A stretch of DNA of 63,926 nucleotides, the filler included, from Intoshia linei (taxonomy: Eukaryota > Animalia > Orthonectida): NCBI GenBank assembly GCA_001642005.1. It is 5 parts of 5 records of this genome, joined end to end, with 100 filler letters (N's around TTAATTAATTAA, not from the genome) between each part and the next. Parts side by side here need not be neighbours in the genome. Positions count along the whole stretch, not along the records: positions 30,458 to 52,332 come from LWCA01000616.1; 4 more parts are not named here. One strand, written 5' to 3'. This document shows, piece after piece, positions 20,880 through 53,966 of the stretch. A model generated the notes under the pieces. That model had not been told where the DNA came from, searched no databases, and was given only the letters and a program-made list of their open reading frames with translations. The translations under genes were made by a program, and so were the position numbers. Numbering within the stretch: the first letter of the stretch is position 1; every line of letters begins with the position of its first letter.

Positions 20880-21140
20880 AAAAAGGGGATTTTGTTCATT
20901 AAGGGTTGGTAAAATTGGATTTTTTATTTTGGGTTTTGTATTAAGAAGTTGTTGCTCATATAATTTAGTAGAATCGGATTTTTCAAATAGAAGGTTGGTA
21001 AATTTGGATTTTTCATTTAAGAGTTAGTAAATTTGGATTTTTCAATTAAGGTTTGGTAAAATTGAATTTTTTATTTTAGGTTTTGTATAAAGAAGTTGTT
21101 GCTAATGCGATTTGGTAAAATCGGATTTTTCCATGTAGGG
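20880..21140. repeat. Degenerate minisatellite (~30-35-bp unit GGTTGGTAAAATTGGATTTTT), probably internal to a MITE family
   Basis: Repeated TTGGTAAAxTxGATTTTT units. A related array lies at 55918-56230. Confidence 0.65.
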
Positions 21141-24043: not shown

Positions 24044-24086
24044 TGTTCATTATGATTATTTATCATTGATAACATTTTTAATTTAG

Positions 24087-30337: not shown

Positions 30338-30457
30338 GTAACAATTATTATATTTTANNNNNNNNNNNNNNNNNNNNNNNNNNNNNNNNNNNNNNNNNNN
30401 NTTAATTAATTAANNNNNNNNNNNNNNNNNNNNNNNNNNNNNNNNNNNNNNNNNNNN

Positions 30458-31514
30458 GTGTATATGTATTGAGAGAAATGATGCTGGTACTTTTTAAAGA
30501 TAATGGACAAAGTGAATTTAGTATATTAATCGAAAATCAACTTTGGTGTATTAAATTGGCTTATCTCTCTGATATTTTTGATCATTTCAATAGAGTAAAT
30601 GCAAGTATGCAAGAGAAAGAAGAAAATATATTAACTTTAGTTGATAGAATTCATTCCTTAAAAGAGAAGTTGGGGTCTGGAAAAGGCGTATATAATAAAA
30701 GTATATATATTATAATAGAAAGAAATTTTGCCATTGCTATAAAAATCAATGAATGTAATTTGAAATATAGTATCACTTCTTTAATTGTTAATCATTTAAC
30801 GGATCTACAAGGTAAATTGCACCATTATTTTCCCAATATTAATACAAAGGATTATGACTGGATGATAAACCCATTCATCTCAATACCAAAAAATGCTAGT
30901 CTTATTGAGGAAGAAGAATTTATAGATATTAAAAATGACAGAAGTTTATCAGCTATGTATAATAACGTACAGCTCAGCAGTTTTTGTATAAATGTCTCGA
31001 AAATATACCCTACTGTAACTAATGAAGCATTAAAAATACTTTTACAGATTTCAACCACATACATATGTGAAATTTCATTTTCTGCGATGTTACTAATTAA
31101 ATCTTACAAACCAAGAAGCTTTAAAATGTTGGATGACGAATTGCGAGGATCATTAACACAAATACCTCTTAATATTAAAAGAATATGTTCATCCAAACAA
31201 TCAAAAATCTCTCATTAATTTTGTAATTTATTAGATATAAACATTGATGTTATACATGTATTTGAAATGATCTTATTATTTTTGTATTTGTTCATTTTTA
31301 TTCACACTTTCAATTTATACATTTTTTTTAATAACATTACCTATAATTATTTTTAATCTATAGTGGAGCAATAATTTTATATCATTTATTTTGAGATTAT
31401 TATTAGAAAAAATTTCATTTCAACGTATCAATAGTATATTTTTAGATTGGTGTGTCGCAAAAACTTTTCAGATTGAAATGTGTGTCGCCAACAAAAATGG
31501 GTTGGAAAGCACTG
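30458..31514 (+). mobile_element. hAT (Buster/Charlie-type) transposase 3' part with right TIR
   Basis: W.IKLAYLSDIFDHFNRVNASMQ, YFP, WMINPF, ALKILLQISTTYICEISFSAM..IKS, terminal SKQSKISH. The end reads GTTGGAAAGCACTG. Confidence 0.88.
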
Positions 31515-34500
31515 CGCTATACTCTCAATACCGAAATATCGGTAATCTTACTGTATTTAGCTGAAAGTAACACGTTAAATTTGATTCGAATGTAATAACA
31601 ATCAATATAAATCAGAATATATTGCAATTTGTAATATTTTAAAAATGAAATAATTTATTAAAACCTATTTTTGGGGTACTTTACAATAAAAGGTACCCAA
31701 ACCAAGGTCTTACTGTACAAGTGCTACGGAAAACATTAAAAAATTAAAATTTTTGTAACAACTGTATATTGGATTGTTTGTTCAACAAAAATCTTTTTTT
31801 GGTTGATATTGCGTATTAAATAGTTAAAATGTGAGAAATCGAAACGATCGACTTCAATTTGGTATATTTATAATATATACATTGAATTTGTTAATGAGAC
31901 TATACAAACATACATTTATTACAATATTTACAACTAAAAAAACTTACAATTAGAAATGAATATAAAAATAAACATTTTTGACGCGATAAATATATTTTAT
32001 CAAAAATATGAAAATCTGTTACACTTAAACTTGAAAACACCAATAAACGTATTACAAATAATTATGTAGATACACTCACTAAATATTAGGAATTGGAACA
32101 CTTAGTAGATCTGACCTACAAAAGCTACAATCGTATAGATTCCAGTTACAGTGTATAAAAAAGTAATGCATTAATGCCAACAATTTTAGACATTATTTGA
32201 TATAGAAAATTTACTCGAAAATATAAATGAAAATTGCGAAAATATTTTAAATAAATAATTTAATTTAAATTTTATACACCATACAAAATATTTGCAAAAC
32301 AAACAGTGTTGTCATAAAACGAACACGAAACAATATCATCAGAATGGCTAGAGGTTTTGGTATTGTCAAAATCAAATCCATAAACTAAAGACGAATGGGA
32401 AAAATTTTCAGATAAATTTAAACTCGTTGTAATATTAAAATTATCTAAATAAAATGTAAAAATATATTTTTTTAAATACCATCCAAAGTAATAATGGTTG
32501 GTCCAGCGTTCAGGCAGGCTAAATAGAGTCTACTAAATTCTTTATTGTAACGCATTCTCCAAGTTGGGGTACTTATTTTTAAAACATTGAAAGGGTTTGA
32601 TAAATTCCTCATATCGTATATTAAAATATCATTGTCATAACTAAATTAAAATTAATATTCCAGATCAGAGTCAGATTGGGTATTTTCAATGTATTTCTTA
32701 TAGTCACGAATGCACTTTGTAAAAAGTCACCGCACAATTTTTATTATCAAATACTGCTTAGATTTGTAAAATTCAATGAAATTATGTCATTTATTTTGTT
32801 TATTCATAAAAAATAAATATTTAAGACCGTTAATTATTTCACATTTTTTGTTTTATAGTCCTCAACATACACAAGCGTTATAAAATTAGATTCTAAAATA
32901 ATAAATGAAACAATCCACAAATTTTTAGAGGTATAAATAATGCAGGAGATTACAGCACAAATACTAATTAAACCAATCAAACGCGTTTAAAATAAACAAA
33001 AGTTCAAACCAAAATTGTAGTGAAATGTAATGTGACTAAAATGTAAACCAAAACGTAAAAAAACGTCGAAGTTGTATTTGTGCTGTTATAACCATAGTAC
33101 TAAATTATATAATTCATAAGGAACTAGAAATTTCTAATTTAAAACGACAGTTTTAAAGAGTACTGTAATAGGTGACGGGGACTATTAATAAAATATTTCG
33201 GAAAAAAATATATGAATACTAAAATGCTTTTTTGACCGTGAAATCGTCACTTATTCGGATTAAAATTTTTTGTGTGTGTTAACAGGATACAACTGTACAA
33301 CCTGTAAATTTTTTTCAATTCTAGGACTGTTTATATAAAAAAGGATAATTTGGTGTTTTGGCCATGAAGATATCTTTTTTTTAAATTTAAATTTGATAAT
33401 ATTGATAATTTCAGAATTCGTATCAGAGTATATATTTTTTTAAATTCTCGAACTCGTTTGCTTTTCAAAAAATGGACAATTAAGTTTTTTGACCCGTAAG
33501 ATGGGAGTTTGGGAGGTTGAAATTTATTTCGCTAACACCCCTGGAAAAAACTGTAATTGACTGTGGACTTTATAAAATTTGATTAAAAGTCAACATTTGG
33601 GCAAGTTTCAAATTTCGACTCAGTGTATGAAATGGTTATCTAATACTAAATAATCAAATGGACATAATTTATAACCAGTATAAATACCCCGATATACTCT
33701 ATATGCAAATGAGCTAAACATACCTCCCCACTAAAAATTGTTCATCAGATAGAAATTCTAGACATAAACCGCCAGTTTTGGTCCTAATGTATAAATATAA
33801 TTTAAATAAAAATAACACTGTTCTTCACTCATTCTCGTTCCTCACTTATTCAGATCTGGTTTACAAAATTTATATATTATATTATATAGGAATTTATTAC
33901 TATCCGATAAACTGTTATTCAATCTCTATTGACATATGTCAAAATATTTTATTACTAGAGACATTCATAGAACATAATGATTAGGTTACGTAACATTTTA
34001 ATTAAGCTCTTAAAGAAGTTTGCATCATTGCAAATTCAATAATGGCATAATTGTGTTTATGATAAAGTTTGATAATTGTTGTGCTGTGCTTAATGACTTT
34101 AGACTCTAAAGTGTTTCTTAAACGGTGTGCCGCGAGATTTTCTAGGCGTGCCGAGGAGAAATTTCATTTAATAATATTAATTAGTGTCGTATACGATTAC
34201 GGAACATACTATACATTTTTCATGGAAATAATGTAAAAAGTTTAATATTAGTTAAATTATTAATAAATTTAGTGATGTTTAAAAAAGTGACGGGATCACA
34301 TCAAAATATTAGCTTTTACTATTTCATTATACATTTTGTATATAAGATGTTTTATGCAGGACCGTGGAGAGGGGGCTAAGGGGCCATATGGCTTATTAAT
34401 ATTATTTGAAAACTTTTGAATTTGTACTTATGACTGTTATTTGGCTTAAAATACTTAGAGATAGATTATGTTAATTTAATCCTAGAATGCACTGATTTAA

Positions 34501-34759
34501 CTTAAAATGTTAAAAAGGGTAACATCATTCATCTCAAGGTCTAATAAGGTCAAGAACTAATCTCATTTCATATCATGGTTTAATGATTTTCCGATCTTTA
34601 TAAAACTTGTCTTGTTTTTTTAAAAAAGGGCGTACAAATGCGTAATTATTATTATAATAAGATTTTGATTTTTGAACGTGAAAATCGTAATTTTTTTCAT
34701 TAAGTTACAATATTGTTTTGACGCGTTTTTAAATAGAATTAAAATCAGATTAATTTTTC

Positions 34760-36540
34760 GATATCTGATCATACATGTTTGTTCCTATAACAATTTCAGA
34801 AGGTGATACACCATTCTTTGAAGTGATGGTACTGCGTAGGCTCATAAGAATACACTGAAGTGATTATTCCCATAACGGATCATCAGATTCACATAAAATA
34901 CGTAATCGTTCATTTAGCTCGATTATAGCGTTTTACCATTCTATTTTGTTTGTGTTCATATGGTGCTAAAAATGATTGTTCGACATTATACATTTTACAC
35001 AACTTTTTAATTATCTCAGCCTGAAACTGTTTAGCATAATCCATATGTAACCTATTAGGCGGCCCATAACGATATAATATTTTCCAAAATAGCAGTGTAA
35101 ATTAGGGTATTTCACAATTTTCAAATTTCATAATTTTTGAGAACTTTAGCATAAAAAATGATTAAATTGATATAAAAATCACTATATTGCAAAAAAAAAA
35201 TATATAAAATCTTTGTTTGAAGTTGCCCCATAAAAGAGGTTTTCAATATCAAAATTCATAATAAAAAGTAAAATAAACTTAAATTCTGAAATTATTCTGA
35301 AAATGGACTTAAAACAAGATTTTTTTGTAAATTTTTATATAAATTACCAATTTCACAACAGACTACCTACTAACGAACATGTTATCAATAGGATATTGGC
35401 AATGAAGCACGACAAAATCATAAAACCTTATAGAGTCATTTCAAGAGAAATTGAAAAAATTGTAATTGCTTCAGGATTAAAATCCTTCAGAATAGATCGA
35501 ATGGAAGTAAAAATTAAATTTTTATGGTCTATGTATAAATCAGGAAACAAGCGAAAATCATCCAAAGCAGCCAATAATCTAAAAAATTTTTACCAAATTT
35601 GTTTAAATTTTATAAAAAGTGTCAAGCAGGAACCTTGGAGGAAGATTTAAAATTTCTTGAAGTTCAAGAACAGAATGGTACAGGATTTATTTCAAATATC
35701 CCTATTGAAGATAACATTCACCTAACAAATTCTTCAAACCCAAAAAAATAATATTAATGACGATAAACGTATTAAAAAGGTGAAACGGGAGTATAATGAA
35801 ATTAAGTACATGATGTGGCCTTCCTCAAGTGAAAATGAAATACATAATTCCAAAGAGGTCAAACCAAATCTATGGAATGAAAGCGATAGAAGAGGAGCTA
35901 GTGCTTTGTTCAATGTTTCGTATTCTATTGTCAAAAGAAACAGACTAAAAAGTCGCTTGTCCTTAGCTAACAATATAAATTTGAACATTGACGCTATCAA
36001 AGAATGTGTTGTTTATTATGATGGTAAATCATTTAGGACTGGATACGAGCGCATTGCTGTAGTGGTAATTGATATAGCCACTTGTAAAGAATATATATTA
36101 TCAATCCCTGAACAAAGTGGCGGAAAAGGTGTCACCATCCTTCATATTTAGCCTTTTTTCAAAATTTAATTTAATCAATAATTGGGTTCTGACACCGTAA
36201 TTATCTTAAATTATCATTAAAATGCCAAAGAGTGAGACACATAGCAACGGAGTATGTATATAAGACTTAATTTTAAAAATGTAACTTTATTTCAATTTAT
36301 ATTATGCAATTTTACATTAAAAATTTATTTACTTTGGGGCAACTTCAAACAGTTTTTATATAAAAATTTTTGTATTTCACTGATTTCTATTTCAATTTAA
36401 TCATTTTGTATACTAAAGTTCTTACCAAATCTAAAATTTTTAAAAATGTGAAACACCCTAGTGTAAATATTATGTGCTGTAATAAATTGCATAGGTTGGA
36501 CTTCAATCCAACCTGAATAATGGTCTACCATAACCTAGCA
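34760..36540 (-). mobile_element. Retroviral-type integrase remnant split by the hATm insertion
   Basis: Joining across the TSD gives VMVDHYSGWIEVQPMQFITAHNIY|TAILENII.RYGPPNRLHMDYAKQFQAEIIKKLCKMYNV...APYEHKQN...ERLRILC...MSLRST...GVSPSEIV.G. Confidence 0.8.
35103..36460 (+). mobile_element. Internally deleted hATm-like DNA transposon with ~130-bp TIRs and an 8-bp TSD
   Basis: GTGTAAAT|TAGGGTATTTCACAATTTT ... AAAATGTGAAACACCCTA|GTGTAAAT. The ORFs contain RLPTNEHVI and VYYDGK...ERIAVVV. Confidence 0.85.
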
Positions 36541-36640
36541 TTAATTTATTAATTATAGAAAATAAAAATGATCACAAATATGATGATAAACTAAAAGCAA
36601 ACCTTTTAACTTATTTATTGAACAACAGAGCAAGAAATCC

Positions 36641-37057
36641 ATTTGTCCTGAAAATTTGACGGGCAATGTAGATGATGGCACATTCTATTTTGAAGATAAT
36701 TATATGAATATGCGCATTACAAAAGGAGCCAGCTATAAACATATGCTATGGCAACATTATATGGAGATTGTAACTGCAAGGGATGGTTTGTACATGACGT
36801 TTTTCGAATTCGTGTAGCGCCTCATAGATACGTTGTTATTTATACGCCACAAAGCTGCACACCAAACTATGTTTTAGACAAATTCGACAACTATGCTTCT
36901 CGACGAGTAGTCGTGAGCACCAACAATGGTGCCAACCTAATGCGGACAATCTGCAACGGGTTGTGCAATCACTGTTGACACTATTACCTATTCAATTTTT
37001 CACTCATGTATAATACAACTGGAAGCGAAGAACATAGAACCTGACAGTGAGTACTGA
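36641..37057 (+). pseudogene. Endogenous nodavirus-like element: fragment of the protein A N-terminal capping (MTase-GTase) region, frameshifted
   Basis: ICPENLTGNVDDGTFYFEDNYMNMRITKGASYKHMLWQH / GDCNCKGWFVHDVFRIRVAPHRYVVIYTP...RRVVVSTNNG / AITVDTITYSIFHSCII. This is colinear with the recalled nodavirus pattern F.P..V.G...D..F.....N...M.V.GGA.YKH.LWDY...P.R.++...P. Confidence 0.7.
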
Positions 37058-37606
37058 AGCTAAGAAAAAATTAATTGTTAGTTATCATTTAAACAATGTA
37101 TGATAGTGTAGAAATCTTTTTCTACTTAATTATTTTTAAAATAAATCTGCAATACCGATATTGCGGGTTTATTAAATACTCCTGGTTACACGGTAATATT
37201 TCACGTAAATAAATTTATATCTCATTTAAATTTCGAAACCGTAGGGTGGAAGATAAAAGCCAAGATAAATTGAAAATCAGATAATGGGTTGACAATAATC
37301 CAAATCTTTAACTTAATCTTTAAAATGTCTCACATTACAAGAGTTAAACATTGATTGTAGCACTACACATTTTAATGCTTAAATTAAAATAAATGAAATC
37401 GATTTAGAAAAAGTTGATGTTTAATTTAAAATAATAGATATTAAAAAGCAATATTGTTTTCAATTTCTAAGTATGCAATCAAATTCAAAAAAACAGACAA
37501 AAATGGGAGTTAAAATAGATATATTGTTATAACGTTTTGTTTTATTATTCATATTTTATTTTATCTATTTTTATAGGATCCATTAGAAGCAAATCCATGC
37601 GAAGTG

Positions 37607-37885
37607 ATGCAAAAGTTAGTGTTAGCAGCAGCTGTCGATGGAGATTGAAACTGGTAGCTTCGGCAAATGGTGTTTCTATCAATACTGCTTATGATTGGAT
37701 AAGGAAATGAACCAGAAAAACAACGAGGAGACAATGAGGAAAAAAAGGTACAAAAAATGGATGGATGACAAATGTAGGGGTCAATCTTACGACAATGCTG
37801 CCAACATGTCTGGGCGTTATAAAGGGATGCAGCAAATAATCTTAGAAACAGACAAGGTTGCTATATATGTGCCCTGTGCAGCAGA
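37607..37885 (+). mobile_element. Abutting fragments of a Tc1-like N-terminal HTH and a hAT (Tip100/ZMYM1-type) transposase
   Basis: KLVASANGVSINTAYDWIRK..RG, followed by KCRGQSYDNAANMSGRYKGMQ..I......AIYVPCAA. Confidence 0.7.
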
Positions 37886-40719
37886 AATCAGTCTCTGAAA
37901 CAGTGGATATTAAAAACAATTGATGCTGATATAACGTGGATATATCTGTTACCACATATTATACACTATTACCACTATTCACAGGGTGACATAAAAAATT
38001 CCATTTTCTATTTTTATGGGTAGCTCTGGTTTTAATACGTATTAATAAATGGAATAAGATAAATCAATTTTAAGATTTACATCAAACGTAAAATAACATG
38101 ACGGTAAGTCCACAAGTTATATTAAAAATATGCTTCGCGATGCGAATGCAAGTATACATGTCCTATACAAGTCACACAACACTACAATTATAAAAACACG
38201 TATCAAATTGAAACAAAATTCATTAAATTAATTAGTATATTATATAACATTCGAGTATATTAGTTATGGGTTTTCACCGATTGGCCTCCTGTGTCACTGA
38301 CAGTGGGCCAAAAAAATTTTTAAACGCAAAAATAAATCCATTGAAAAAATTTTTTATATTTTTTTTATTAAAGTTGTGATAACTGAATTTTATGAATACC
38401 ATATGATAAATTCATATATTGGCTACAATTTGATAAAATAATTAGGTATATTGACGATGCAGTTCTATAAATACACGCTTTTATTTGCCTTATACTCCCA
38501 ATGTGAACATATGGAATGTAAAATAACTCCATAACTACAATTGGTAATTACCAAAATTGAAAAAATTTGTCTGGGGATATTAGGATTAATTAAAATGGCA
38601 TTTTAATTGTAATGTAAACATTTCCATAATAAAATGCTATTGATTGCAAACATAACCTTATTGCTATTAAATGCAACGAGATGTAACTGTGGATAAGTAT
38701 CGATAAACATAATACCAATATTTATGTATTATTATTTAATTGTAATATTGTGAATTTAAATTGATTGACGACATAATAATCTAATCTGATACATATTCAT
38801 TCTAAATTCATTTTTGGTTCAGTGTACTTTTGATATACATTTAATTTATAAATTTTTGATTAAATTTTAATCGTGATTCGAACCAAAACTTTTCATTTTG
38901 TAATTACATATCACCACAACACTGTCCGATGCAGAACTCTGATAAGGTATAAATAAAATATTACGCTTTAATAGAATGAACCAGATTGGCACATTTTTTT
39001 GACCAAATTTTTATATAACAATCGTCGGATACTAAAATTACATATTATAGAATAAATAAACAGCAATTGAGTAATGTTAATATTATGTAATAATCTAGGG
39101 TGTCCAGATTTTATAATTACTAATTAAGTACTTTTCAAATTTCTTAGAAACAAAAAAAATCAATAAAATTGGAACTAAAAGTTCTAACAATTTTGAAATT
39201 TTCAAAAAAACCCAATTTCTAATGATTTTCCCCATAACGTGTTTTTATTCATTTTACAGTTTCAGAATTTGAGTTTTACAGTGTCCAAAACCTAATTTCC
39301 CCTTTTGTTTAAAAAAAATCAACCTAAAAATTTAATAAAACATACATTTTGGAAAATTTATTGTAAAAACAGCACATACAAAAACGGCACAACTTCAATA
39401 ATCATAATTACATAACAACGAAAATACAATTGTATTAATATGATTCACAAGTAGAACTTGACATTAAAAGACTATTGTAATAAATTCATTTTCGTAATTA
39501 ACATTTTAAAATTTGGGCTTGTAATAATTAAAACTAATTTCACTGCGTTAATAACAGGAATACTGCAAAATAGTAACTAATAATTAACACTTTTTAACAG
39601 CATAACTCTATTTTTCACTACGAAACATCATATATTGTATATTTTTAATTAGAATTATAATTGAATATAATAAAAAAATATTCTCTAGTGTGAACACAAT
39701 AGAATATTTTTAATTTTTTTGTAATATGGTTTGTAGGTAAAAAATTAATCTTAATACTTCAGTTTTAACTTAAATCTGTAGTGGATGAATTCTATAAAAT
39801 CTATTAATAATAATAAAAATGAATCTAATATAGGTCAAATTTTAATTGAAATTGCGTTATATCAGTGTAGTTTCGGTATTCATTATATTCATTATTCATT
39901 GCTATGTAATTATAATTATTTAAATTGTGCCGTTTTTGTAGATTACCTTCTGGAACGCGTTTTAAAAGCAATGAAATCGTATTTTTTAGTACAAAAATTG
40001 TATCGTTAAATTGAATACATATTAAATTTAGATTGGTAATAGTGCGTATTTAGTACGTTTTTCGGTGTTGCAAAAAAAAAGTACTTTTGGTCGCTTTTAT
40101 CTAAGTCGAACTGCTTCATTAAACTATAAAAATTACATGAATAAATGCAGCCATTGTTCCCAACTTTTCCATACCAACAGGTATATTCGTGAGCCTTTTC
40201 ATTAAATGATATCTGTTTTAAATTTTCATCAAATATACTCAAAGCTCCTGAATCATATGTTATACATCCAAATTTTCTATAATAATTTAATTTAATTACG
40301 ATTCTATTAACTAGGGCAAGTAAAAATTAATTTTTATATACGGCACACAATGTTTGGATCATTATAACAATACATGTACCATTGCAATAAATGAGTATTT
40401 CTATTAAGATGTTGCACCCCCATATAACTGTAGAGGTAATTGGAAAAGATGTAATATCATTCCTGACATTGAATGAGTCGTCAATTTTTGATAGAAGGAC
40501 GACTGAGAAATACTGAAACAATAGCTAAAACTTTTATATTTCTCAAGTACAAAAATTCCGATAAATTTAAACTTAAAATTATACTATCATAATTATATTC
40601 TAATTAATAATAAAGCTTTTTCGGTTCTAATCATATCTTTAGATACGCAAAACATTTTATTTTTACTCTAAATACAATTTATACACAACAATAATAAAAA
40701 TTAGAAAATCATTTTCTTT

Positions 40720-41463
40720 ACAAAAAAAAATTTTGGATATCAAAATACACCAACAAAAATTTGTCTGTGAAAAGTAGTCTTGCATCGTCAACTGTTTTAG
40801 ATATTAAAAAAAACTCAGAAATAATAATACATAATAAAAGAACAAACAAAAATTTTAAACAAAGAAAATGATTAACGAAGATTGTGGTGGATTAAAAAAG
40901 TTCAAAGCCAGTGATGGATAACTAAAGTCATTCAAACGCAGGTGATACATCCTATAAAACGTTGTCTGGTACAAAAGCATCATTTAGTCAAAATAATATT
41001 GATGATTTCTTTCACATTTTAAAAAATAAATTAATTGAGTATGAAATAAAGGACATTTTTAATGCCGATGAAACTGCACTATATTATAAAAAATTGCCTA
41101 CAAAAATCTTTAGTACATTTAGTTACATCTTTAGTGCACAGGAATCTACTAAAAAGATTAAAGACAATAAAGATAGAATAACAATTTTACTCAACTGTAG
41201 TGCTGATGGTAAACAAATCAAACCGTTATTCATTGAAAAAAGTGCCAAACCAAGGTATTTCAAAGGATTAAATATGAATGAACAACCTTTCTATTGTAAA
41301 AGTAATTCAAGTAATGACAAGTCGAATATTTCACGATTATATGAATAATTTAAATTATTTATTTTACAAAACTAATGGAAAGGTTCTTATTTTGATAGAC
41401 AATTGTCAATTCTATATAAAAAACAAGATAATCATTTCCTTTGAGTTCAATTTATATTTATAA
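40720..41463 (+). mobile_element. Tigger/pogo (DDE_1) transposase remnant
   Basis: FKASDG*LKSFKRR, DIFNADETALYYKKLP, KDRITILLNCSADG, KPLFIEKSAKPRYFK, KVLILIDNC. Confidence 0.9.
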
Positions 41464-41975
41464 ATAAAAAATTTTAACTTTCATTTTTTCGAGAAACCTC
41501 CAATGTTAATTGCGTTATCAACATTTATTAACAACCAAAAAAACAAAATTCCTTTACGATTTGAACAATTAACTATAAAAAAATGATTTTATTTTTTGAA
41601 AATATGAAGTTAGTTAAGAAACAACGACTTTATGTTACTGAAAATGTATATAATTTTCATAGACCTCAAAAAAGTGCTTTGGACCCAAAAGGTCTACATG
41701 GACCCCGTTGGGAATGCCTGGTTTAAATCGAAAACCACTGTATATGGAAAATGTTTTATGTTTATAAGGATAGATAGTTAGATATTTCACCATTTTTAAA
41801 ATAGTTATACTAATCGGTACATTTTGCTTGCCCTAATTAAATTTTAATAGATTACAAATTTTGATTGTAATCAATCGACAAAGATACATATCTATTGCTT
41901 TGATTTTCGAATGGCGGATCAAGCTAATTAAATATATAATATAATTAAATTTACGTTTATATACTTAAATACTTT

Positions 41976-44340
41976 AGATCCCTGTCACAATTGTTTAGTA
42001 GAATTTGCTAGAGGGCAGTTATTAGGAGAAAGTTATATGTCAATTTTTAAACATCAGTTATTTCATGAACATTCAGAAAACGGTATATGTCTCCAACAAT
42101 AGGGATAGTGTTAGTGGGCATAGTGAAATGGTTACTTAATGAGGAAACACATTGTTGTTTGAAGCATACATTAATAAAGTATTTTGGAAGTACAATAATA
42201 GGATCTAGTTTGAAATCGATGTTTGCAAATAAATTTTCATGTGTACCAGAAGGACAGATAAATACTTATGCACTTAATGGCATATATGAAGTTTTGTCCA
42301 CGCTTAATCCACTTGCAAATATGGACAAGAGTAGATATATGGAGGCTGCCAATTTTTCAAAAAGTTTTTCTTCTAATTGTACTGCAGTTCAAAAGTTAGA
42401 AATTACTTTACTAAGTTTACTAAATTGTTTAGTTACTGCTTATAAGTCATCTATGGAAATTTTGCCTTCAGAAGTATCTTCGTGGGTTAAAACAGTAGAT
42501 GACCTTCAAGTCCTCTATAAAGCTAATAAAGAATTCATGTTTAGTCGCCAATGAACAAGTTTAGCCTGTATCGATCAAAAATTTTTAACTTATATACAAC
42601 ATAAGGACTAAAATATCAGACCAAATTTTCACTTATAGATATTAAGAGTAAAAATTATCAAATCATTACCTCTAGAATGGCCAAACTTAAACAAATCATT
42701 ACACAATCATGTTCTTCTTACATGGGCAATGACAAAAAACAGAAGCCCTTACTTATTTACTTACATGAATTTCCTGGTATAAGTAAAACCATATGTGTAG
42801 ATCATCTTTTTACTGATCTCTTTGCTTTGTTAAAAAGAGATGTCTATAATCCGGAAACTGATAAATATTGTTATAATAGTTTAAGCCCTTTCTTTGACAC
42901 ATACAATCATCAACCAGTTTTTGAAATTTCAGACTTTATGCAGATGCGTAATAAAAATGTCCAAATGTGTGAAATAGTTAATGCACTAAAAGCCGGAGAT
43001 AAAAGTAGCTTTCCTTTGAATATTGCCAAATGTCAAGCCAAGGGTACTGTTTACTTCACATCAGACTTTTAGTTATAACGAGTAATTTGGATCCTCTTGC
43101 ACACAAAGCCACATTGGGTTCAGTTATGGATAAACCTGAAGCATTCAATAGAAGAATTGATGTTAAAGCTTATGTTACATGTGATTTTTCCATGGCATCA
43201 AAAAATTCCACTATTTATAATAAAGACAGCATGGTTATTCAATGTTAAATTAAGGGATGTTAAAAAAGTTTATGGATGGAACGATTTTGTGGCACTATTA
43301 TATCAAAAATATATAGCACAAAGAATAATATCCTCAAATATGACTGATTGTTCAGGTCATTATCATAAAGAACGTATACCACACATTGAATCTTTACTAA
43401 ATAAGGATTTTGGGGGTAGAGATACCGAACTACCAACTAAGGTGTCTCTTTTTGCAAACCTTTGACAATTTAATTCTTCACTGTGATAATGATTTTTGAC
43501 GTGATTGTAATAGAGTTGCTGAGACTCATCCAGAATTTGCAGACCACTGATACAATATTAGAAGACATACTTTCAAAAGTGAACAAGGAGCTGTGCACAA
43601 ATGTAATAAAACATGCAAATTTAAGATTGCTGTAGGACAATATTTAGAAACTAATTCACATCTAGAAATCCATCAATTGGATCTTTCTCTTGATGACTAT
43701 CCCATTGCGAAGTTGAAATTAAGTGAAAATATAAATAAATATCAAATCCAGTTTGATAAATTTGCGACCGATAATAAGATTTTTATAGAAGCGCAATTTT
43801 TAAATACTACGCAAACATTTGGCAAAAAAGACAATCCCCGATATATCATTGCTTGTAAGAATTGGGTGCTCGCAGTAAATGTATTAAGAGCCCAGAACTA
43901 AACAGTGAACGCAATTATGTTTTTACTGAGTCTGATACGATTGTAAAACCCTATGAAAAAACATTGAAAGAGTTTGTTAAAATGAGGGCTGAGAGTGTGA
44001 ATGCAAACAATGAAATTCATATTGGTAATCCCGTTGACGAAATGTTATCTGAGATAGATAATGAAAGAAAAACGCTTAGATCAAATTGGCCATGAAGGCG
44101 TTTTCGGCAATTGAACAATTCGGCGATTTGTGTGATTGGAGTGAATACCAAAAATCAAAATCACTGTGGTATGTTTTAAAGCGTAAAGCTTTAGAAAAAA
44201 TCAAAGCCGTTATGGGTGTGCCTAAACATGACGAGAAGTCATATTTGGCAATGAAGCTAATTGCTATGGGTGAATCACAACCAGGCGATCGTGAGAAACA
44301 AAATTTTGTGCTAGTGAATAGATGCGAATCAGAGATGGTA
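41976..44340 (+). pseudogene. Endogenous picorna-like viral element: 2B-like region, 2C/SF3 RNA helicase and downstream unassigned ORFs; stops and frameshifts present
   Basis: KPLLIYLHEFPGISKT (decayed Walker A), FFDTYNHQPVFEISDF (motif B), FPLNIAKCQAKGTVYFTSDF/LVITSN (motif C) and PEAFNRRID (Arg finger). Intronless, ORF-dense and less AT-rich than its flanks. Helicase core ~42740-43165; sequence after ~43500 is assigned only by continuity. Confidence 0.88.
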
Positions 44341-44399
44341 ATATTTTTTTATACTTGATAACTCAGGATAATCAAAAATATGATTTTTATTTTTTAGAT

Positions 44400-44650
44400 A
44401 TTTCAAAAAAATATATTTTGTTAAGGAAATTACTGAGAGAAATTTTGTTTCTTACTTGAAAACACCTGGGTCAAGAAGTTTCAACAAGTATTAAACATGA
44501 ATCAAATTTGGTATTATAAACTGCAAAAAGATGCAATATATGTCCAAGAAACACTGAAAAAAAATCAATGGTATATTGTAGTATATGCAAATTCATTGCA
44601 TGTAAAATACACAGAAAAGTTATGTGTTAGATGTGCGCATAAGTTTAGTC
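44400..44650 (+). mobile_element. piggyBac C-terminal cysteine-rich domain remnant
   Basis: KRCNICPRNTEKKSMVYCSICKFIACKIHRKVMC..C. Confidence 0.65.
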
Positions 44651-44696
44651 AGTGATTGTAAATAAATTATTTATGGATACTATTTAATGCTCCGAC

Positions 44697-47110
44697 TAAT
44701 TTAATAGTTTCAGCGTCTAATTAATCCCGCTTCTATAATTATAATTAGCATAATTATTAATTGTAATTAATTATATAAAATTAAAATTCTAAATTGATTG
44801 AAGTAAATTTTATTTTAAATAAACGTAACATTATTTAATATAAAACATAGCGTTTACTGAATTTATTGTATTAACGTCTTTTAATTTTTAATAAAACTTT
44901 AAAATTTCTATAAAACAGTAATTACTTTTTTTATAATCATAATAATTTTAAATAGATGTTTTCTACTATGAAAGATTACGTATCATCCAAATCGGAAAAT
45001 AATATTAATGATGACAGGCAAATCAGGGAAAGAGCAAGAATATATTCAATGAATACTGTGTTCAATTCTGCCGTGTAAGCGAAACAGTACATAGAAGTTG
45101 ATACTTGATCTATTAATACAACTGGAAAAACATTATGTGGTAAAAATGTGTTCTATCGTTGCAAAAAAACGATCAATACTAATAAAAATTCGTGTAAAGC
45201 TAGTTTATACTTGTTATATCATAATAATAATCAACAAGTATCGTTTTGAGCATTCTTAGAATGCAAAAATACGGTCCATGCTCTATTAGCATAGGCGATT
45301 TATATTATTTCTGTTTAAATAACTCAAGTATTCCGACTATTACTGATAATGCATATGTTGTTAAACATTCTATATGTAATGACAGCTTCAGTATATTTGT
45401 CTCTTCCCCTACTCTATTGAATTTATCCGGTAATATTAAATGCATCCACTCTGATGCCACATATAAACTAATATGGCAGGGATACCCTGTCTTGATCGTG
45501 GGTACAACAGATATAGACAGAAAATTCCATCCTTCAGGAGTTGGTGTTTGTACAAATGAAAAATCTAATGATTTCAAATTTTTATTTAATGGGTTAAAAA
45601 AAGGTGTTGAATAATGTAGTAATGTTAGTACATTTAATCCTCGAATACTAATAGCTGACAACAGTGCCGCCATAACATCAGGATTTTCTAACGTTTTTAA
45701 CATGAAAAAACGTATAAATTGTTGGTTTCATATAATCAAGTCTGTAGAAAAGCATGTCAGTTTCCTTTCTCTTAATTCTCGTACAAAAAACGAAATAAAG
45801 TCTGATATATGTCATATTCCACTGCAATTTTTCACAAGTATTCACGAGTTTTTGTTTAAAATGGTCACATTGCACCGAATTTATTCGTTATTTTGAACAC
45901 CAATGGAAGTCTCCACCAAATATGAATTGGTATGAAAGATTTGTTGATTTTTTACCTTCAACTAACAATGGTCTTGAGTCTTACAATCGATTGATTAAGG
46001 ATGAAAATACACTTAGAAATAGGTTACCACTGGGTCAATTTCTAAAAATTTTATTTGAAAGTATTATATTTCTAATAATTCTCGAAATTCTACAAATCCA
46101 AATGCCAAATTGTATGTGACAAAACAGACATTAACCACTAAAAATTAGACAGATGCGTATCAATGGATTCAAAAACGAAAGACTATTATTATGTCACATG
46201 ATCAGTATTATGTACCAACTGGAAATGATGTTGACTTGACCGAGGACCAAGTGAGTCAATATATGGATTCAATAAATCAAAACAGATTTAAAAATTTTTT
46301 CAATATGAGAAAATGTTTAAATTCTGTTTAGAAAGTATCGCTAAATCGTAATAATTGGAAGTTTTTGAAGTGTACGTGTCCCTTTTGGAGTAAACCTTAC
46401 ATGTGTAAACATTCCATCGGTATAGCAATACGATTAAAAATCGATGGGTGTATTGTACCTCGAGAGGCGAAAGCTCTGTCATTGAATATTAAAAAAAAGA
46501 GAGGACGACCAGCTCAGACTAATCAAGCTTTGATGAGGCAGTGATAAATTCAAATATAAATGTTTTTAATTAATAATAATAAATTTTAAATTTATTTACA
46601 GTGAACGACAGCTAGTATGCTAAAAAAATAAAATCTTTAATACTTAATATACATTTTATTTAAAAAAAAAACTATTTGAGTTAAAAAAGACAGCACAAAT
46701 ATTGTTCACTCTGAAATCGTTGTTATTTAGGCTGGGTTTTTAAATTTCATAAATCTAATATTACAAGTACGTGAGTTACAATAATAATAATTTCATTGAA
46801 CGTTTTTCGAAAATTAATTCATAACAAATAAAATAAAGTAAATTTATTAATAAAGTAAGCAATTTGATAGCCTAGAACAACTTGTGCTGTTTATATATAC
46901 ACCATATCAATAGATATAAAAGGGTAGAAAGTTTGAATTCAATTGAGAAAGGTTATATTTTTCCCCTAGCACAATAGCTGTCGAACACTATTAATATCAA
47001 TAAATTAAAAGTTAGTTTTATAAAAACCAATGTTATGTTTAAATAAAATAAATGCTACTTCTATTAATTTAGACGCTGAAATAACTATAGACGCTGTAAC
47101 TATTAAATTA
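44697..47110 (+). mobile_element. Decayed MULE/Mutator transposon with SWIM finger and TIRs
   Basis: HSDATYKLIWQGYPVLIVGTTD, LIADNSAAI, CWFHI, STNNGLESYNRLIK, CTCPFWSKPYMCKHSIGIA and KRGRP. TAATTTAATAGTTTCAGCGTCTA (44697) is the near reverse complement of TAGACGCTGTAACTATTAAATTA (ends 47110). Confidence 0.9.
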
Positions 47111-47441
47111 TATGTTGCAATAATAATAACTCATTATTTATTACCAATAAATTTTGACCCTTATAGTCACTCATTATTATCATTTTACATCGTGTCATTT
47201 TTTGTAATTATATATGGAATGTATGACAATATCATATTTCCATGCATTTTATAGATTGGGGTAGTTTTCTACCCCACGCGAGTAGCTACGTTATAAAGTT
47301 AAAATAACGCGATCCATTACGCGTTAAAATATTATTTTATTTGAATTATTTCAAATGATTTATTATTATGATGATATATCCGTTGATTATTTATTATATG
47401 ACAGTTCTGAAGATGAATTACAAAATACCTTTTTTGTCTAT

Positions 47442-48388
47442 ACCGTCTTAAAACACGGACAAAAGAGTTCAAGTTATACGCGAGTTATTCAAATAAAAAC
47501 GCGAATGGCAGAATTAATGTAATTTAGTGTGAGCTCTCAATGGCGAAACACTGGCCCGTCTTATAGTATATGCTATTGAAACAAAAACTTAATTGGTGTC
47601 GTAAGGCTATAGCTTCAGACCTGAAAGATAGTAAACTATGCCCGAGTAGACTAAAACCAGCGGAAACACTGGTGGAAACTCGAAGTGATTCTGAAGTGCC
47701 AATCGATCACAAAACTTGGTATAGGAGTTAAAAAATTAATCGAACCATCTAGTAGCTGGTTTTCTCCGAAGTTTCCCTCAGGATAGCTGGCGCCATAAGT
47801 AGTTGTGTCCGTTAAAGTAAATAATTAAGGGAATTGGTGGTGAAATGCCGTCAACCTATTCTCAAACTTTAAATGGACACGATACGCGACTCCACTTAAT
47901 TGGAGTCGCGGTTAGAATGCAGGTGCCCAGTGACCCATTTTTGGTAAGCAGAACAGGCGCTTTGAGATGAACCCAACGTACGGTTAAGGCGCTCGACATA
48001 ACGGTCATGACATACCATAAAAGGCGTTGATCAATATTGAAAGCAAAGCGGTGGCCACGGAAGTCGGAATCCGCTAAGGAGTGTGTTATAACTCACTTGC
48101 CGAATCGACTAGCCCTGAAAATGGATGGCGCTAGAGCGCTAGGCTTATACCTCACCGTTACTGTATATTGTACGCATTAATAAGTAGAAGGACGTTCTGG
48201 TAGTATCGAAGCTACTTGATTTGAACTTTGAAGGCTGACGTGGAGAAGGGTTCAATGTGAACATTAATTGGACATGGATTAGTCGGTCCTAAGCGATCGA
48301 AGAAATCCGTTCAGAATGTATTTATTTGATTGACAAGTTTTTGATTTTGTAAGGAATTTGATACTGTGATGGAAAGGGAATCAAGTTA
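47442..48388 (+). pseudogene. 28S (LSU) rRNA pseudo-fragment, about D3 to D7a; may extend upstream to ~47255
   Basis: ACCGTCTTAAAACACGGAC, TAATCGAACCATCTAGTAGCTGGTT..CCGAAGTTTCCCTCAGGATAGC, TTTTGGTAAGCAGAAC, GAAGTCGGAATCCGCTAAGGAGTGTGT, CCCTGAAAATGGATGGCGCT, GTGGAGAAGGGTTC and GAAAGGGAATC. There are substitutions at conserved sites, the GCAGATCTTGGTGGTAGTAGC block is missing, and no other rDNA is nearby. Confidence 0.93.
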
Positions 48389-48389
48389 A

Positions 48390-49193
48390 AAACGAACTTT
48401 CAACCGAATCCTTGCTCAGCAAGATATGATAAACCAAAATTTAGACGAACATCTTGCCACAACATTAGTTATTAAAGCAGCAATACCAGGTCTTACTAAA
48501 ATAACTTGAGCTCTTATTTTAGAGGTTAAGATTAGAGATTTTGCAAACCTTAAAGGGATACAGAAATTCTTCACTCAGAATATTGCCATTGCGTTCTCAT
48601 ACTCAAAATCCCTTTCACTTCTATTGACCAACAATATGAAGGCTATGATCGAATTTTTTCAAAGATTTAATTACACAAATCTTTACTCAAACATTACTCT
48701 ATTTGACCCGCTTATTATTTACATGCTTGCATTACCCTGGGGTAAGTCTTTCTTCAAACCACTTGGTCAGCTTTGAGCTTTTCGAGTATATTAGATTAGA
48801 GAAATATTTCGCAAAAGTCCCACAGCTGTTAAAAAAGGGATTTTCGCACTTCTCCAACCATCACGGTTGATCCAGGGTAAATCATTGACTCTGAATTGAA
48901 TTGAATCACTGACTCTCCTTAAAGAAATTAAGGATGACACCAATGTAACAACCATCACGACAACGGGATTGATACAAAATAAGCAAGATCTTTTGGATTT
49001 TTTAAAAAAATTAAAAATTAATGTATTCGAAAATGATCTGCCCACATTTGTTGATATTAATATAAACACTGATATAATTGATGAGATGGATGTAGATTAA
49101 GAGAAGTCGTTAATATCAGAATCCACAAATTCTATAAACGATCTCATTGATAAACTAATGAATATTAGTGTAGTGCCTATCTCGGATATATAA
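48390..49193 (+). pseudogene. Orphan decayed intronless coding sequence directly fused to the 28S fragment
   Basis: One frame of ~268 codons with only 5 internal stops (48507 TGA, 48774 TGA, 48792 TAG, 48897 TGA, 49098 TAA): KRTFNRILAQQDMINQNLDEHLATTLVIKAAIPGLTKIT*...YMLALPWGKSFFKPLGQL*...DIIDEMDVD*... Confidence 0.65.
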
Positions 49194-49380
49194 AAGTTAT
49201 TGGATATAAGAAAAAATTAATATGATAATTGTGATTGATCATTTAGTAACTAGCAACGACTAAATTGTTTGATTCTATATTAACAAAAAAAATTTAGATT
49301 TCCAAAAATCATATTCTCGGTTATGGTATTTATGTAAAGAAAGTAAGGTTTAGGTGTTTGAAAATAGTTATAATAATGGT

Positions 49381-49540
49381 AAAAAGTATTGTTAGTGTAA
49401 ATGCGGTAAATTGGAATATGATTTCATGATAGAGTGTGACACATGTAAAGATTGGTTCCATGGTAGGTGTGTTAAATTAAAAAAAACAGAGGCGGATAAA
49501 ATGCAAAATTTTGTTTGTAAAAATTGTAAAAAATTGGAGA
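49381..49540 (+). pseudogene. PHD finger remnant, probably TE-associated
   Basis: [32 protein letters not shown]......NFVCKNC (C4HC3), with an in-frame stop. Confidence 0.7.
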
Positions 49541-49689
49541 TGAAAATGTATAAAAAACGGCCTAATAAATTTAAAGATTTTGTTGTTGAAAACCAAATAT
49601 TGATGAAGATTAAAAGTTATGATCATAATGAAAAAGTTGTGGTGGAGAAAACCAATCTTAAAATAATGGTGGAAAAATAAGCAATATTT

Positions 49690-51390
49690 CGATAGTGGGT
49701 GAGAAGAAGAATTTCAAATTTCATTTGTATTGTATCAGATTGTATTTTAAAGTAACGATAACTATTTTGAATTTTGTTCTTAAATTTATTTTCTAGATCA
49801 TTAAAATTCTTCAACTTCAAGCATGAGACAACATGCTAGTAAGAAGCATGATGTGGTTTTGGATGATTCCTCATCTTTACATAGCACCAAAAGTTTTCTT
49901 CTAAATTTACCTAAGCATGAAGTTGAAAAATTAAATAATAATTAAATGGAAAATGATAATAGTGGATGGCAGATCATTTTCTGATTTTCAAAAAAAAATT
50001 AAATCATTTTTGAAAGATGGCATTCCAAAAAGTTACCAGTTGATAAGCCGGTTTCAAGCTGCACGGAAAATTACAGATTTATATATGAAAAAAACATTGA
50101 AATTAAAAAATGAATTGAAAGAAACTGATGTTCTAAGTCTTACCCCTGATATGTGGTCATCAAGCAATAAAAACACATTTATGGTGATAACAGCTCACTA
50201 TATACATCAAAATAATCTTAAATCCATTGTACTGGATTTTCGCCATTTTTCTGGTAGGTATACTGGTTTACATATTGCAAATAGAATGTTTGAAATTCAT
50301 AAAAAATTTGAAATTGTGGAAAAAACTAGATTTGCAACAACTGACAGCGGTGCCAATATTATCAAAGGTTTCAAAGACTTTAAATCAATGTATGGAGTTG
50401 ATATTGAACGATTTCCTTGTATTTCACATACATTGCATTTGATAATTACCAAGTCACTTCAGTTATGGAGTCAAAGAACTATTGCTAATGATGATAATGC
50501 TGACTATGAGTTTAGTATTGAAGATATTGATATAATTGCTGACATAAATATATCATCGGAAAATGAAGCAGACACTCATGAAACCATTGAAAGATATTTA
50601 TATGATAGTGAAAACGAAACTGATAATGATAAAGTATTGATAAATAATAGCATTGAAATATTCAGTTTAGCTCTTTAAAAAATTAAAAAAACGATTGTGT
50701 TACTAAATCAATGCCCCAGATTGAATATGGCATTACAAGAAAAGTTGAAAACAAATAGTGATAGCAAAGCAATTCCATGTTTAGATTCAAAAACTCGTTG
50801 GAATTCAACATATCACATGATAGATAGAATTAATAACATTCAGATAAATACATGCTTATCAGACAACAGATCACTAAGTTTCTGACAGATGCTGCTTTCG
50901 CAAAAAACCGTAAAAAGATTGATAAATTCCATAAACAAATTCTGAATTCAGAAGAGACCACTTCTTTGAGTGCATGCCTTGTAATAATTGAACCTTTTAT
51001 AAAATTTACTGTTATTTTGAGTGGAACGTCATATACAACATCAGCTTTAGCACTTCCAATGATTAAAATCATTTGTGAGGTTGCTTCGGCTAAGCAAACT
51101 GATGATTTATTATTGAAATTCTTAAGAAAGAATAAATAAATGGCTTGTCATTATTTCTATGATGAAGCTGGAGAACTCAAAAAGCACGTAATGAATCTGC
51201 TGTGGAATATTGGACCAAAAGCAACCTAACAATTTTAAAAAAAGTTTCTATCAAGTTTGTTGTCACTCCTTTAACCTCAGTAGCATCAGAATCAACTTTT
51301 AGTATTAGTGGCATCATCATTTCCAAAACAAGAGTAAGACTGAAAAATTATAACATAAAAAAACTGTTGTTTTTGAAAGACAAATTATAA
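49690..51390 (+). mobile_element. Decayed hAT (Ac/ZBED-type) transposase
   Basis: SLTPDMWSS, FMVITAHYI, TTDSGANI, PCISHTLHL, LDSKTRWNSTYHM, and the hATC motif PLTSVASESTFSISG.IISKTRVRL. Confidence 0.92.
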
Positions 51391-52432
51391 TGTTTTATTA
51401 TTCAAATTTCATTTTCTTATTTCCATTGTCTTAATCATACCATAATTAATTATAAAAAAATTTCATATAAAGCCCCCTTGAAAGTTAAGTTCAAAAAAAA
51501 TCTGAAAAAACCGCCGGTTAAAGTTTGGTTTAAAAAACATTTCTAAGAACCGCCTTAAAATTTGGGTTACAAAAATTTCTAAAAAAACCCTATATGCTAA
51601 AGCTGATGTTGCATATGACGTTCCAAGTATCCAACTCCAACAAATTCCAAAAAATGTATCAAGACTATTGGTATTAGTATTGAATATTTTTAGTATTGAG
51701 AGTCAATACCAAGACAATACCAAGAAGTATGGATTTGTGCACATGCCTAATTATGGTTACCAATAACAGAAAATAGTACGAATTGATAATAGATTGATTT
51801 ATAAAATTGAAAAGTCTGATGCAAAGATACTTCATAACAATTTTACAACTAAATCTTTTGATGTCATATTCGACTGGTTCAATAAGAAACGATCTCTCTA
51901 TTTATTTTTCATTGTGTTAGATTAAAAGAAATGACCTTAAAACTCGCCATTAAGGTGGGTTTTAAAATTTTTCAGTTTCAAATGGTTACCTAATATCATT
52001 TAAACAAAGACATAAAATAATCAGAAAAACCGTATGCGGAGAATCTGGCTTTGTTTATGAAAGTATTATAGACACTAGGGGTGTGAAGGAATTTTTATAT
52101 TAATAGTGCACCCTTCCACCATATGAATATTTTGAAAATATTCAATTTGCACCCAGTCTTACCTCTCACCTGTTAAAAAAACCCTGGGTCATCCCCTTTA
52201 AAGTTTTGAACAATATATCGCTCACAGTAACTAATATATAACAATTTTCTTAAAAACATTATTTTAAATAAAAAAAATTTTTATACAAATAGCTATAAAG
52301 ATGCGCAAAATTATCGTCTAGCAAATCATGAANNNNNNNNNNNNNNNNNNNNNNNNNNNNNNNNNNNNNNNNNNNNTTAATTAATTAANNNNNNNNNNNN
52401 NNNNNNNNNNNNNNNNNNNNNNNNNNNNNNNN

Positions 52433-52570
52433 AAGTTTCTTTAAGTGCAAGATCAAAGATGTGGTTGATCCTCCTGAAGACTTCATGGTTTTCTGACACT
52501 TCGTGCATTGAACGTCATCTTTGTTCTTCCGAATAAAAAATTTCCACACATTTGATTTCCTTTTTAACAT
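52433..52570 (-). mobile_element. BED zinc finger (hAT transposase N-terminus), truncated by the gap
   Basis: KSNVWKFF.....VQCTKCQKTMKSSGGSTTSLILHLKK. Confidence 0.8.
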
Positions 52571-52930
52571 GTTAGGGCTGAAAAGTAAAAGGGAAAATTA
52601 TAAAAATCATGAAAGCTATCATATCAATAAAAAGAATATTGATATTAAAAGATCATAACAAATGTAATTTTATTCTAAATAAACCCCTGTAAATCTTCTA
52701 TTGACTTACCAAAGAGAATCCAAAATCGAAAAGCGGATATAAAAAGTAAAATATTAAAACAAATATTACAAATAATAAAACCGATTTCATCCAATAAAAA
52801 TCCAATAAAATATTAAGGTAGTGTGTTACACATCACATTATTTGACATACAAAACGGTATAAAACTTGGCAAACAGTATATATATTATTGTATATGTTAT
52901 ATACTATATAACATAGGTAAAAAAAATTAC

Positions 52931-53763
52931 CCATAGCAGCAAATTGCATATTACAAACAGACCCATGTGGACTGATTCTGTATAAATGAGATCCTTTATT
53001 GTCCACTCCTCCAAGAATAAATGCAGCCGATATATACCCCATATGCCTAAATAATGAAGAATAAAGAAGATAAAAGACAAAAAACTTGAATAATTCTTGT
53101 CTAATTTGCCTACAAGCTGCAGAAACATATGGCTTTTTTTTCCAAGTCAATTGCATCAATTGCATTTTTGAAGATATAAGTCTATAAAATTATTAAATTT
53201 TAGCTAACTAAATTCTCAACATGAAAAGTTTAAGTTTTAAAAATAAATTAAAAATGACTAAAAATAAAAATACTCTGTAGTCATTTCAGCATCAGCTGCA
53301 GTGCCAGCTCCGCAACAACTAATTTAAATTAATAAAAAAACAATATAAACAAACTAAATATAATCGCTGATATAATGAATCTTTTCGCAATTTTTATCGG
53401 CTACAATAGGTCCATTTGTTGCTCTTGTATCTGCACCCAAAATTATACCACCCTAAAATTATAATTTAAAAATTAACATTGTATATATACAAAAATTACT
53501 TAGATTGAAAAAATAAAAATACTAATTTACTTTAAAAATAATCCCAACAATCGTAGTTCCCGTTTTAACTGATTTTAATTTTGCCTCTTTAAAAGTTTCA
53601 TTTCTAAATGTAAAAATATAAATTGAAATGCCTTGAAATTATCCAATCAACTAATAATCATATTTACTAATCATTGAAATTTTTTTAAATCAAATATATA
53701 CCTCGATACATTCTCAAAACAAAATCCTGGAACGTGATTTTCATTTTTTTGTAAATCTAACAT
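52931..53763 (-). CDS. PSMB7: Proteasome subunit beta type-7 (beta2), first six exons: 53763-53702, 53603-53531, 53452-53355, 53318-53274, 53181-53086, 53046-52931; 3' exons not seen
   Basis: [90 protein letters not shown]...AMG. All GT-AG introns splice in frame. Confidence 0.93.
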
Positions 53764-53966
53764 GACTTTTTACAAATTAATAGTAACTTTATATTATTTA
53801 AAAAAAAATTTTGATATTTTCAAAATGACTTGGATACCAAAAAAGAAAGGTGTTTATAGTTTTAGTTTAGCGTTTACAATTCAATTTAAAATTTATTTTA
53901 CGCATGTTAATTTAATTATTCCTCACATCTAACTGGGATTCTCAGATTGAAGGAACTTTTAAGTTT

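What the first reader, a model, noticed from the sequence alone, without database searches (positions are those of the whole stretch)
30458..51390. Candidate uni-strand piRNA-cluster-like 'memory' locus: co-oriented virus, rRNA and transposon fragments
Seen: this single contig has no recognisable host gene. It contains fragments of Buster-hAT, hATm, a noda-like virus, Tc1, Tip100-hAT, pogo, a picorna-like virus, piggyBac, MULE, 28S rRNA, an orphan ORF, a PHD finger and Ac-hAT, all on the + strand. Only the old integrase (34760-36540) is on the - strand, so the count is 13 of 14 (two-sided binomial about 0.002 if insertions were independent; some neighbours may not be). TE fragments elsewhere in the window are mixed in orientation. 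Established: uni-strand piRNA clusters (Drosophila flamenco, Aedes EVE-rich clusters) accumulate diverse TE and non-retroviral RNA virus fragments antisense to one long precursor. Inference: a minus-strand transcript across this region would yield antisense small RNAs against many DNA transposon families and at least two RNA virus lineages, i.e. a heritable antiviral archive. Alternative: the block lies in a giant intron of the minus-strand PSMB7, and the bias reflects selection against sense insertions.
Basis: partly seen in the sequence, partly recalled or inferred. Interest (0 to 1): 0.9.

Follow-up and report, generated by a model that had tools for sequence, protein, structure and literature searches.

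The report
One-way virus and transposon archive
In the genome of a tiny parasitic marine worm, a 22,000-base stretch with no recognisable host gene holds broken pieces of two RNA viruses, ribosomal RNA and many jumping genes that nearly all face the same way, and it likely serves as a template for small defensive RNAs, although no RNA from it has been seen.

Summary
Contig 30458-52332 lies between two scaffold gaps, in the orthonectid Intoshia linei (named protein hits). Both viral inserts are real and decayed: a nodavirus capping-domain piece (Pfam E 2e-7) and at least 1.4 kb of a calici/picorna-like polyprotein (63% identical to its best relative). A 28S fragment and hAT, MULE, pogo, piggyBac and PHD pieces lie on the same strand.

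My count is 14 plus to 2 minus (p 0.004). With firmly identified pieces only it is 8 to 1 (p 0.04). Outside the block it is 3 to 7. One hAT element keeps its terminal repeats and an 8-bp target duplication, so it inserted on its own.

The PSMB7-intron alternative is unsupported: the gene's 3' half is absent from the sequenced window. The block may instead lie just downstream of PSMB7, as in mosquito read-through piRNA clusters.

No RNA data could be reached. The host has three PAZ-PIWI genes, clade unknown. Composition gives only weak support for minus-strand transcription. Uni-strand piRNA source: about 50%. It is a known kind of locus; host and contents are unusual.

The parts
30458..52332 (.). 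Whole contig between two scaffold gaps; the candidate locus
   Evidence: GC 0.284; shares repeats with gene-bearing contigs
30460..31218 (+). hAT transposase C-terminal part (Buster-like by recall), cut by the gap
   Evidence: Pfam Dimer_Tnp_hAT E 0.012
34760..36540 (-). Decayed rve integrase, split by the hAT insertion; relatives at 26084 and 27971
   Evidence: Pfam rve E 9e-5; tblastn; outer limits approximate
35103..36460 (+). Short hAT element (hATm-like by recall) with about 190-bp inverted ends and 8-bp target duplication
   Evidence: Atlas lead only
36560..37010 (+). Noda-like virus replicase fragment (capping domain), broken
   Evidence: Pfam Noda_Vmethyltr E 1.9e-7; 3' limit read by eye
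37570..37710 (+). Tc1/IS630-like HTH fragment
   Evidence: recalled motif only; no hit
37695..37895 (+). Tip100-like hAT catalytic fragment
   Evidence: recalled motif only; no hit
40009..40326 (-). Unidentified 106-aa open frame; possible second exception
40525..41345 (+). pogo/Tigger transposase fragment
   Evidence: Pfam DDE_1 E 8e-4 on 40926-41345; 5' limit approximate
41956..44355 (+). Calici/picorna-like virus polyprotein fragment with the helicase; firm to about 43400, weak beyond; broken by a stop and frame changes
44437..44655 (+). piggyBac C-terminal cysteine-rich domain
   Evidence: best PDB hit 5lme, E 0.59
44665..47142 (+). MULE element with SWIM finger and decayed inverted ends
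47459..48391 (+). 28S rRNA fragment with an internal deletion
48390..49190 (+). Orphan decayed reading frame, about 267 codons
   Evidence: no significant hit; fold pLDDT 39
49396..49677 (+). PHD finger fragment
   Evidence: Pfam E 3e-9
49935..51387 (+). hAT transposase (Ac-like by recall), broken
51966..52100 (+). pogo/Tc5 HTH fragment
   Evidence: Pfam E 0.012
52929..53766 (-). 5' exons of PSMB7, pointing toward the block; candidate upstream driver gene; 3' half missing

Best explanation
The block is likely a uni-strand small-RNA (piRNA) source locus: one long minus-strand transcript, possibly read-through from the adjacent PSMB7 gene, would carry antisense copies of many DNA transposons and two RNA viruses. 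Shown: the fragments, their shared orientation, their decay, and separate DNA-level insertion of one element (a second is likely). Inferred: transposons and reverse-transcribed viral and rRNA pieces landed here one by one, and those antisense to the transcript were kept. Untested: transcription, processing by a Piwi protein, and any silencing. The inserts are decayed, so present-day antiviral use is doubtful even if the locus is active.
For: 14 of 16 fragments on one strand against 3 of 10 outside. Two unrelated RNA-virus inserts within 5 kb, plus a 28S piece, all co-oriented. A hAT element with target duplication and a MULE with decayed inverted ends argue against one single insertion. PSMB7 points into the block, and its 3' half is not in the sequenced window. 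Unannotated DNA in the block has A over T of +0.030, the sign of minus-gene introns (+0.043) and opposite to the putative plus-gene introns (-0.02 to -0.06). The host has 3 PAZ-PIWI proteins and 1 Dicer (PMC7943196 supplement). The same layout marks mosquito read-through clusters (abstract, passages).
Against: On firm identifications p is only 0.04-0.07, with no genome-wide control. The skew is weak: 11 of 19 windows. AATAAA is not depleted on the minus strand, 47 seen against 40 expected. Substitution asymmetry is not significant: 17 v 9 in inverted repeats and 12 v 8 by hand count in 28S. Two fragments lie on minus. Flamenco-like bias is driven by Gypsy elements, and no LTR element is identified here. 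Endoparasites often reduce Piwi genes. The link to PSMB7 rests on a scaffold join.
Confidence: 0.5

Rival explanations
1. The block is transcribed on the minus strand as a long intron, 3' extension or non-coding RNA. Sense insertions were purged because they disturb that transcript, and no small RNAs are made.
For: The same orientation bias and weak skew. PSMB7 is cut at the right-hand gap in mid-gene, and its 3' exons could hide in a gap further left.
Against: No PSMB7 3' exon among 4099 six-frame pieces, while 5' exons as short as 18 aa were found. The PSMB7 introns seen are under 200 bp, although a sense-oriented hAT sits in the last one. Minus-strand polyA signals are not depleted. It does not explain two viral inserts together.
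Confidence: 0.2
2. An ordinary gene-poor transposon graveyard whose orientation bias is chance, picked out from many TE-dense windows.
For: Firm count 7 of 8 or 8 of 9 (p 0.07, 0.04). Some neighbours may be single events (Tc1 with Tip100; orphan with PHD). The genome is about 42% repeats. A related viral insert lies on another contig of this species, so such inserts are not confined to this block.
Against: The full count gives p 0.004 and differs from the flanks (Fisher p 0.009). The label-free scan gives 40 of 46 windows. RNA-derived inserts of three origins lie together.
Confidence: 0.2
3. The orientation comes from how pieces arrived: template-switching reverse transcription joined sense RNAs (viral, rRNA, transposase mRNA) into chimeric cDNAs that integrated as blocks, or insertion followed a plus-strand transcript.
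For: Several fragments abut with almost no spacer (28S to orphan at 48391; virus to piggyBac; Tc1 to Tip100). Putative plus-strand cysteine-rich exons run into the left gap.
Against: The hAT element with target duplication and the MULE with inverted ends entered as DNA and share the bias. No cysteine-rich exon of that type was found in the block.
Confidence: 0.1

Closest known systems
Aedes core piRNA clusters made by read-through from upstream genes (bioRxiv 10.1101/2022.08.22.504762, abstract and outline read; PMC8048955, passages)
   Same: Several non-retroviral RNA-virus inserts and transposon remnants on one strand, possibly antisense to and downstream of a host gene.
   Different: Small RNAs and read-through are shown there and untested here. 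Aedes clusters are rich in LTR elements; this block is DNA-transposon dominated, with calici/picorna-like and noda-like inserts.
Drosophila flamenco and flam-like unistrand clusters (PMC10643416, passages)
   Same: Dense, strand-biased pile of transposon fragments that can be spotted from DNA alone.
   Different: Their bias is driven by Gypsy elements and they were sought in 100-kb windows. Here 22 kb are seen, no Gypsy element is identified, and the one integrase is on the minority strand.
Mammalian piC-DoG clusters (PMC11615739, passages)
   Same: Antisense transposon fragments packed behind a protein-coding gene.
   Different: Retroelement content and demonstrated read-through there. Adjacency to PSMB7 here depends on a scaffold gap.
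EVE-derived antisense piRNAs in dog whelk, starfish and sea anemone (PMC6085071, passages)
   Same: Shows that non-arthropod invertebrates make antisense 5'U piRNAs from endogenous viral copies.
   Different: Rhabdo-like and parvo-like sequences; the passages read describe no genomic cluster layout.

Membership tests
Uni-strand piRNA cluster | Dense transposon or viral fragments with strong strand bias | tested here: met
   14 of 16, 8 of 9 firm; about 12.0 of 21.9 kb annotated
Uni-strand piRNA cluster | Uniquely mapping 24-31 nt 1U small RNAs from one strand | not testable with these tools
   no run was listed to lay on the locus
Uni-strand piRNA cluster | One long precursor antisense to the fragments | tested here: inconclusive
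   only compositional proxies, weak or null
Uni-strand piRNA cluster | Host has Piwi-clade proteins and biogenesis factors | tested here: inconclusive
flamenco-like cluster (strict) | Antisense bias driven by Gypsy LTR elements | tested here: not met
   content is DNA transposons, viruses and rRNA; the only integrase is on the minority strand
Read-through cluster (Aedes core, piC-DoG) | Lies downstream of an expressed gene with fragments antisense to it | tested here: inconclusive
   PSMB7 points into the block but its end is in or beyond a gap
Non-retroviral endogenous viral elements | Homology to RNA-virus proteins, decayed, embedded in host DNA | tested here: met
   flanks share host repeats
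Giant intron of PSMB7 | 3' exons on the far side of the block | tested here: inconclusive
   none in the sequenced window; gaps unseen

The most novel reading that the evidence does not exclude
One of the most reduced animals keeps a heritable small-RNA archive, driven by read-through from a proteasome gene, built from DNA transposons instead of retrotransposons, and holding antisense memory of calici-like and noda-like RNA viruses. It would also record two virus lineages that infected orthonectids.
Probability: 0.25. Interest if true: 0.75.

Novelty: new member of a known kind. Interest (0 to 1): 0.5.

Why it matters
If active, it would extend virus-trapping uni-strand piRNA clusters from mosquitoes to a spiralian parasite with a minimal genome, and show that the strand bias can form against DNA transposons in a genome with few retroelements (DNA elements 8.0%, LTR 1.3%, LINE 0.02%). 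It gives one precise locus and strand to test by small-RNA sequencing. The viral inserts stand on their own: Picornavirales EVEs are described as rare (PMC12548735, passage), and these name virus lineages that likely infected orthonectids.

Tried and rejected
Genome-wide strand control and Piwi, Zucchini, Hen1 search: no genome is held. RNA evidence: no RNA holder listed, so no reads were laid.

Helicase search in the word-indexed database: none of 144 candidates scored; the full HMMER search then found 120 proteins. PDB gave nothing for it.

Orphan 48390-49190: no significant Pfam hit, no PDB hit, no viral contig; the single-sequence fold was unusable at pLDDT 39, so no fold search was run. 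It was not compared with the ESM Atlas, so its origin stays open. Minus frame 40009-40326: Atlas recognition low; phages and Pfam blank. Noda piece in viral contigs: none.

Mutational asymmetry: the one locus fetched as a 28S reference did not align as rRNA and was dropped. Inverted-repeat and hand counts were not significant. PolyA-signal depletion: none. The first codon scan had one training exon out of frame and was rerun.

Block inside the PDE gene: judged unlikely, its 5' exons appear to end near 16800 (by eye). Contamination from the worm's host: judged unlikely, GC and repeats match the gene-bearing contigs.

Literature: Intoshia with piRNA gave 5 papers, with piwi 3, with endogenous viral 0. 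None of the listings or passages read describes this locus. The supplement of PMC12147562, which may give the Piwi count for an orthonectid, could not be read.
Full report
Setting. The window is 25% GC animal DNA with compact genes at both ends. Its longer N-runs are 100-base scaffold spacers, so 30458-52332 is one contig. A PSMB7 exon and the noda-like piece each returned a single hit, both named Intoshia linei proteins, an orthonectid parasite.

Contents. Pfam on 141 stop-to-stop pieces gave, on plus: nodavirus methyltransferase (E 1.9e-7), RNA helicase (7e-9), pogo DDE, MULE, SWIM, PHD and hAT domains; on minus, an rve integrase. Rfam gave 28S on plus, ending near 48391 with an internal deletion. 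The helicase piece matched 120 proteins, the best at 63% identity. Five of the top hits were scanned and have helicase then RdRp, four with a 3C protease between; named relatives include Beihai sesarmid crab virus 2 and Cryptolin calicivirus 1. The insert is firm from about 41956 to 43400 and weak beyond, with a stop and frame changes. Another I. linei protein, A3Q56_02120, matches the same viral region at up to 44% on a different contig. The 3' hAT matches Hermes. The piggyBac piece has the piggyBac cysteine-rich domain as best but weak hit. Tc1 and Tip100 rest on recalled motifs. The orphan frame and a 106-aa minus frame stayed unidentified.

Orientation. All fragments: 14 plus, 2 minus, p 0.004. 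Firm only: 8 to 1, p 0.039. E-value only: 7 to 1, p 0.07. Outside the block: 3 to 7, Fisher p 0.009 against the block (the outside list comes, partly by eye, and leaves out one inverted internal mariner copy). A codon model trained on host exons put 40 of 46 coding-like windows on plus in the block and 5 of 9 in the neighbouring gene-poor stretch. The hAT at 35103-36460 has inverted ends and an exact 8-bp target duplication inside the integrase, and the MULE has decayed inverted ends, so the pile grew by separate events. Non-autonomous repeats could not be oriented.

Relation to genes. A profile from 48 of the 80 fetched PSMB7-homolog loci found three 5' exons, while a C-terminal profile found nothing among 4099 pieces. 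The last exon ends at a GT donor, and its intron holds a minus-strand BED-finger hAT beside the gap (E 1e-7). So the 3' half is in a gap or the join is false. The simplest reading puts the block just downstream of PSMB7 with everything antisense to it; an intron is not excluded. Putative plus-strand cysteine-rich exons also run into the left gap.

Proxies for transcription. Unannotated DNA in the block has A over T of +0.030, like minus-gene introns (+0.043), but in only 11 of 19 windows; AATAAA is not depleted on minus. Substitution asymmetry is not significant.

Pathway. A published table lists 3 PAZ-PIWI, 1 Dicer and 0 RdRP for I. linei (PMC7943196, supplement 15 read whole; repeat content from supplement 1 part 3). 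The clade is not given. PMC6396948 (passage) notes a viral-family RdRP gene in this species. PMC12147562 (passages) reports Piwi and Tudor reduction in endoparasites without a number for this host in the text seen.

Mechanism. Most likely a minus-strand precursor, perhaps read-through from PSMB7, is cut into piRNAs, and antisense insertions were retained (0.5). Fragments, orientation and separate insertion are shown; transcription, processing and function are inferred. Rivals: purging from a transcript that makes no small RNAs (0.2), chance (0.2), chimeric cDNA or insertion bias (0.1).

Comparison. It resembles Aedes read-through clusters (abstract, passages) and piC-DoGs (passages). It fails the Gypsy criterion of strict flamenco-like loci (passages). 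Antisense EVE piRNAs are known from a mollusc, a starfish and an anemone (passages). Picornavirales EVEs are called rare (passage). Searches for Intoshia with piRNA, piwi and endogenous viral showed nothing on this locus; the library lacks most subscription papers. Earlier scan notes list 20 findings on strand-biased blocks in other genomes (8 shown); they are unchecked and supplied only the read-through lead.

Verdict. Real features and a plausible but unproven function, in a known class of locus with an unusual host and cargo. Interest 0.5.

Noticed in passing
window 24056-30355, + strand: Four short cysteine-rich exon-like pieces with a duplicated unit (25283-25567 and 29875-30159, 87%); probably a repeat-exon host gene cut at the gap.
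   Followed up: partly
window 52433-52575, - strand: BED zinc finger of a hAT element inside the PSMB7 intron, sense to the gene, at the contig end (Pfam E 1e-7).
   Followed up: partly
window 52929-58566, - strand: The public model A3Q56_06907 appears to fuse PSMB7 with an upstream unrelated gene, and PSMB7 is partial.
   Followed up: partly
protein P0030 (A3Q56_02120): A second calici/picorna-like insert in the same species on a 43-kb contig, 28-44% identical to this one, annotated as a host hypothetical protein.
   Followed up: partly
protein P0124 (A3Q56_04668): A public gene model stitches the hAT, noda-like and Tc1-like fragments of this block into one 180-aa protein; likely an annotation artefact.
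   Followed up: yes
window 51022-51052 and 51595-51625: A 31-bp piece of the hAT coding region recurs inverted about 540 bp downstream (97%).
   Followed up: no
window 28359-28966: Mariner-like remnant with an internal inverted duplication (82 bp, 91%).
   Followed up: no
window 20970-21131 and 55895-56230: The same 29-bp tandem repeat family at two places.
   Followed up: no
window 60343-60977, - strand: Unidentified coding-like stretch with a high codon score and no significant Pfam hit.
   Followed up: no
window 31219-34759: 3.5 kb inside the block with no identified coding fragment; holds short repeats shared with other contigs.
   Followed up: partly
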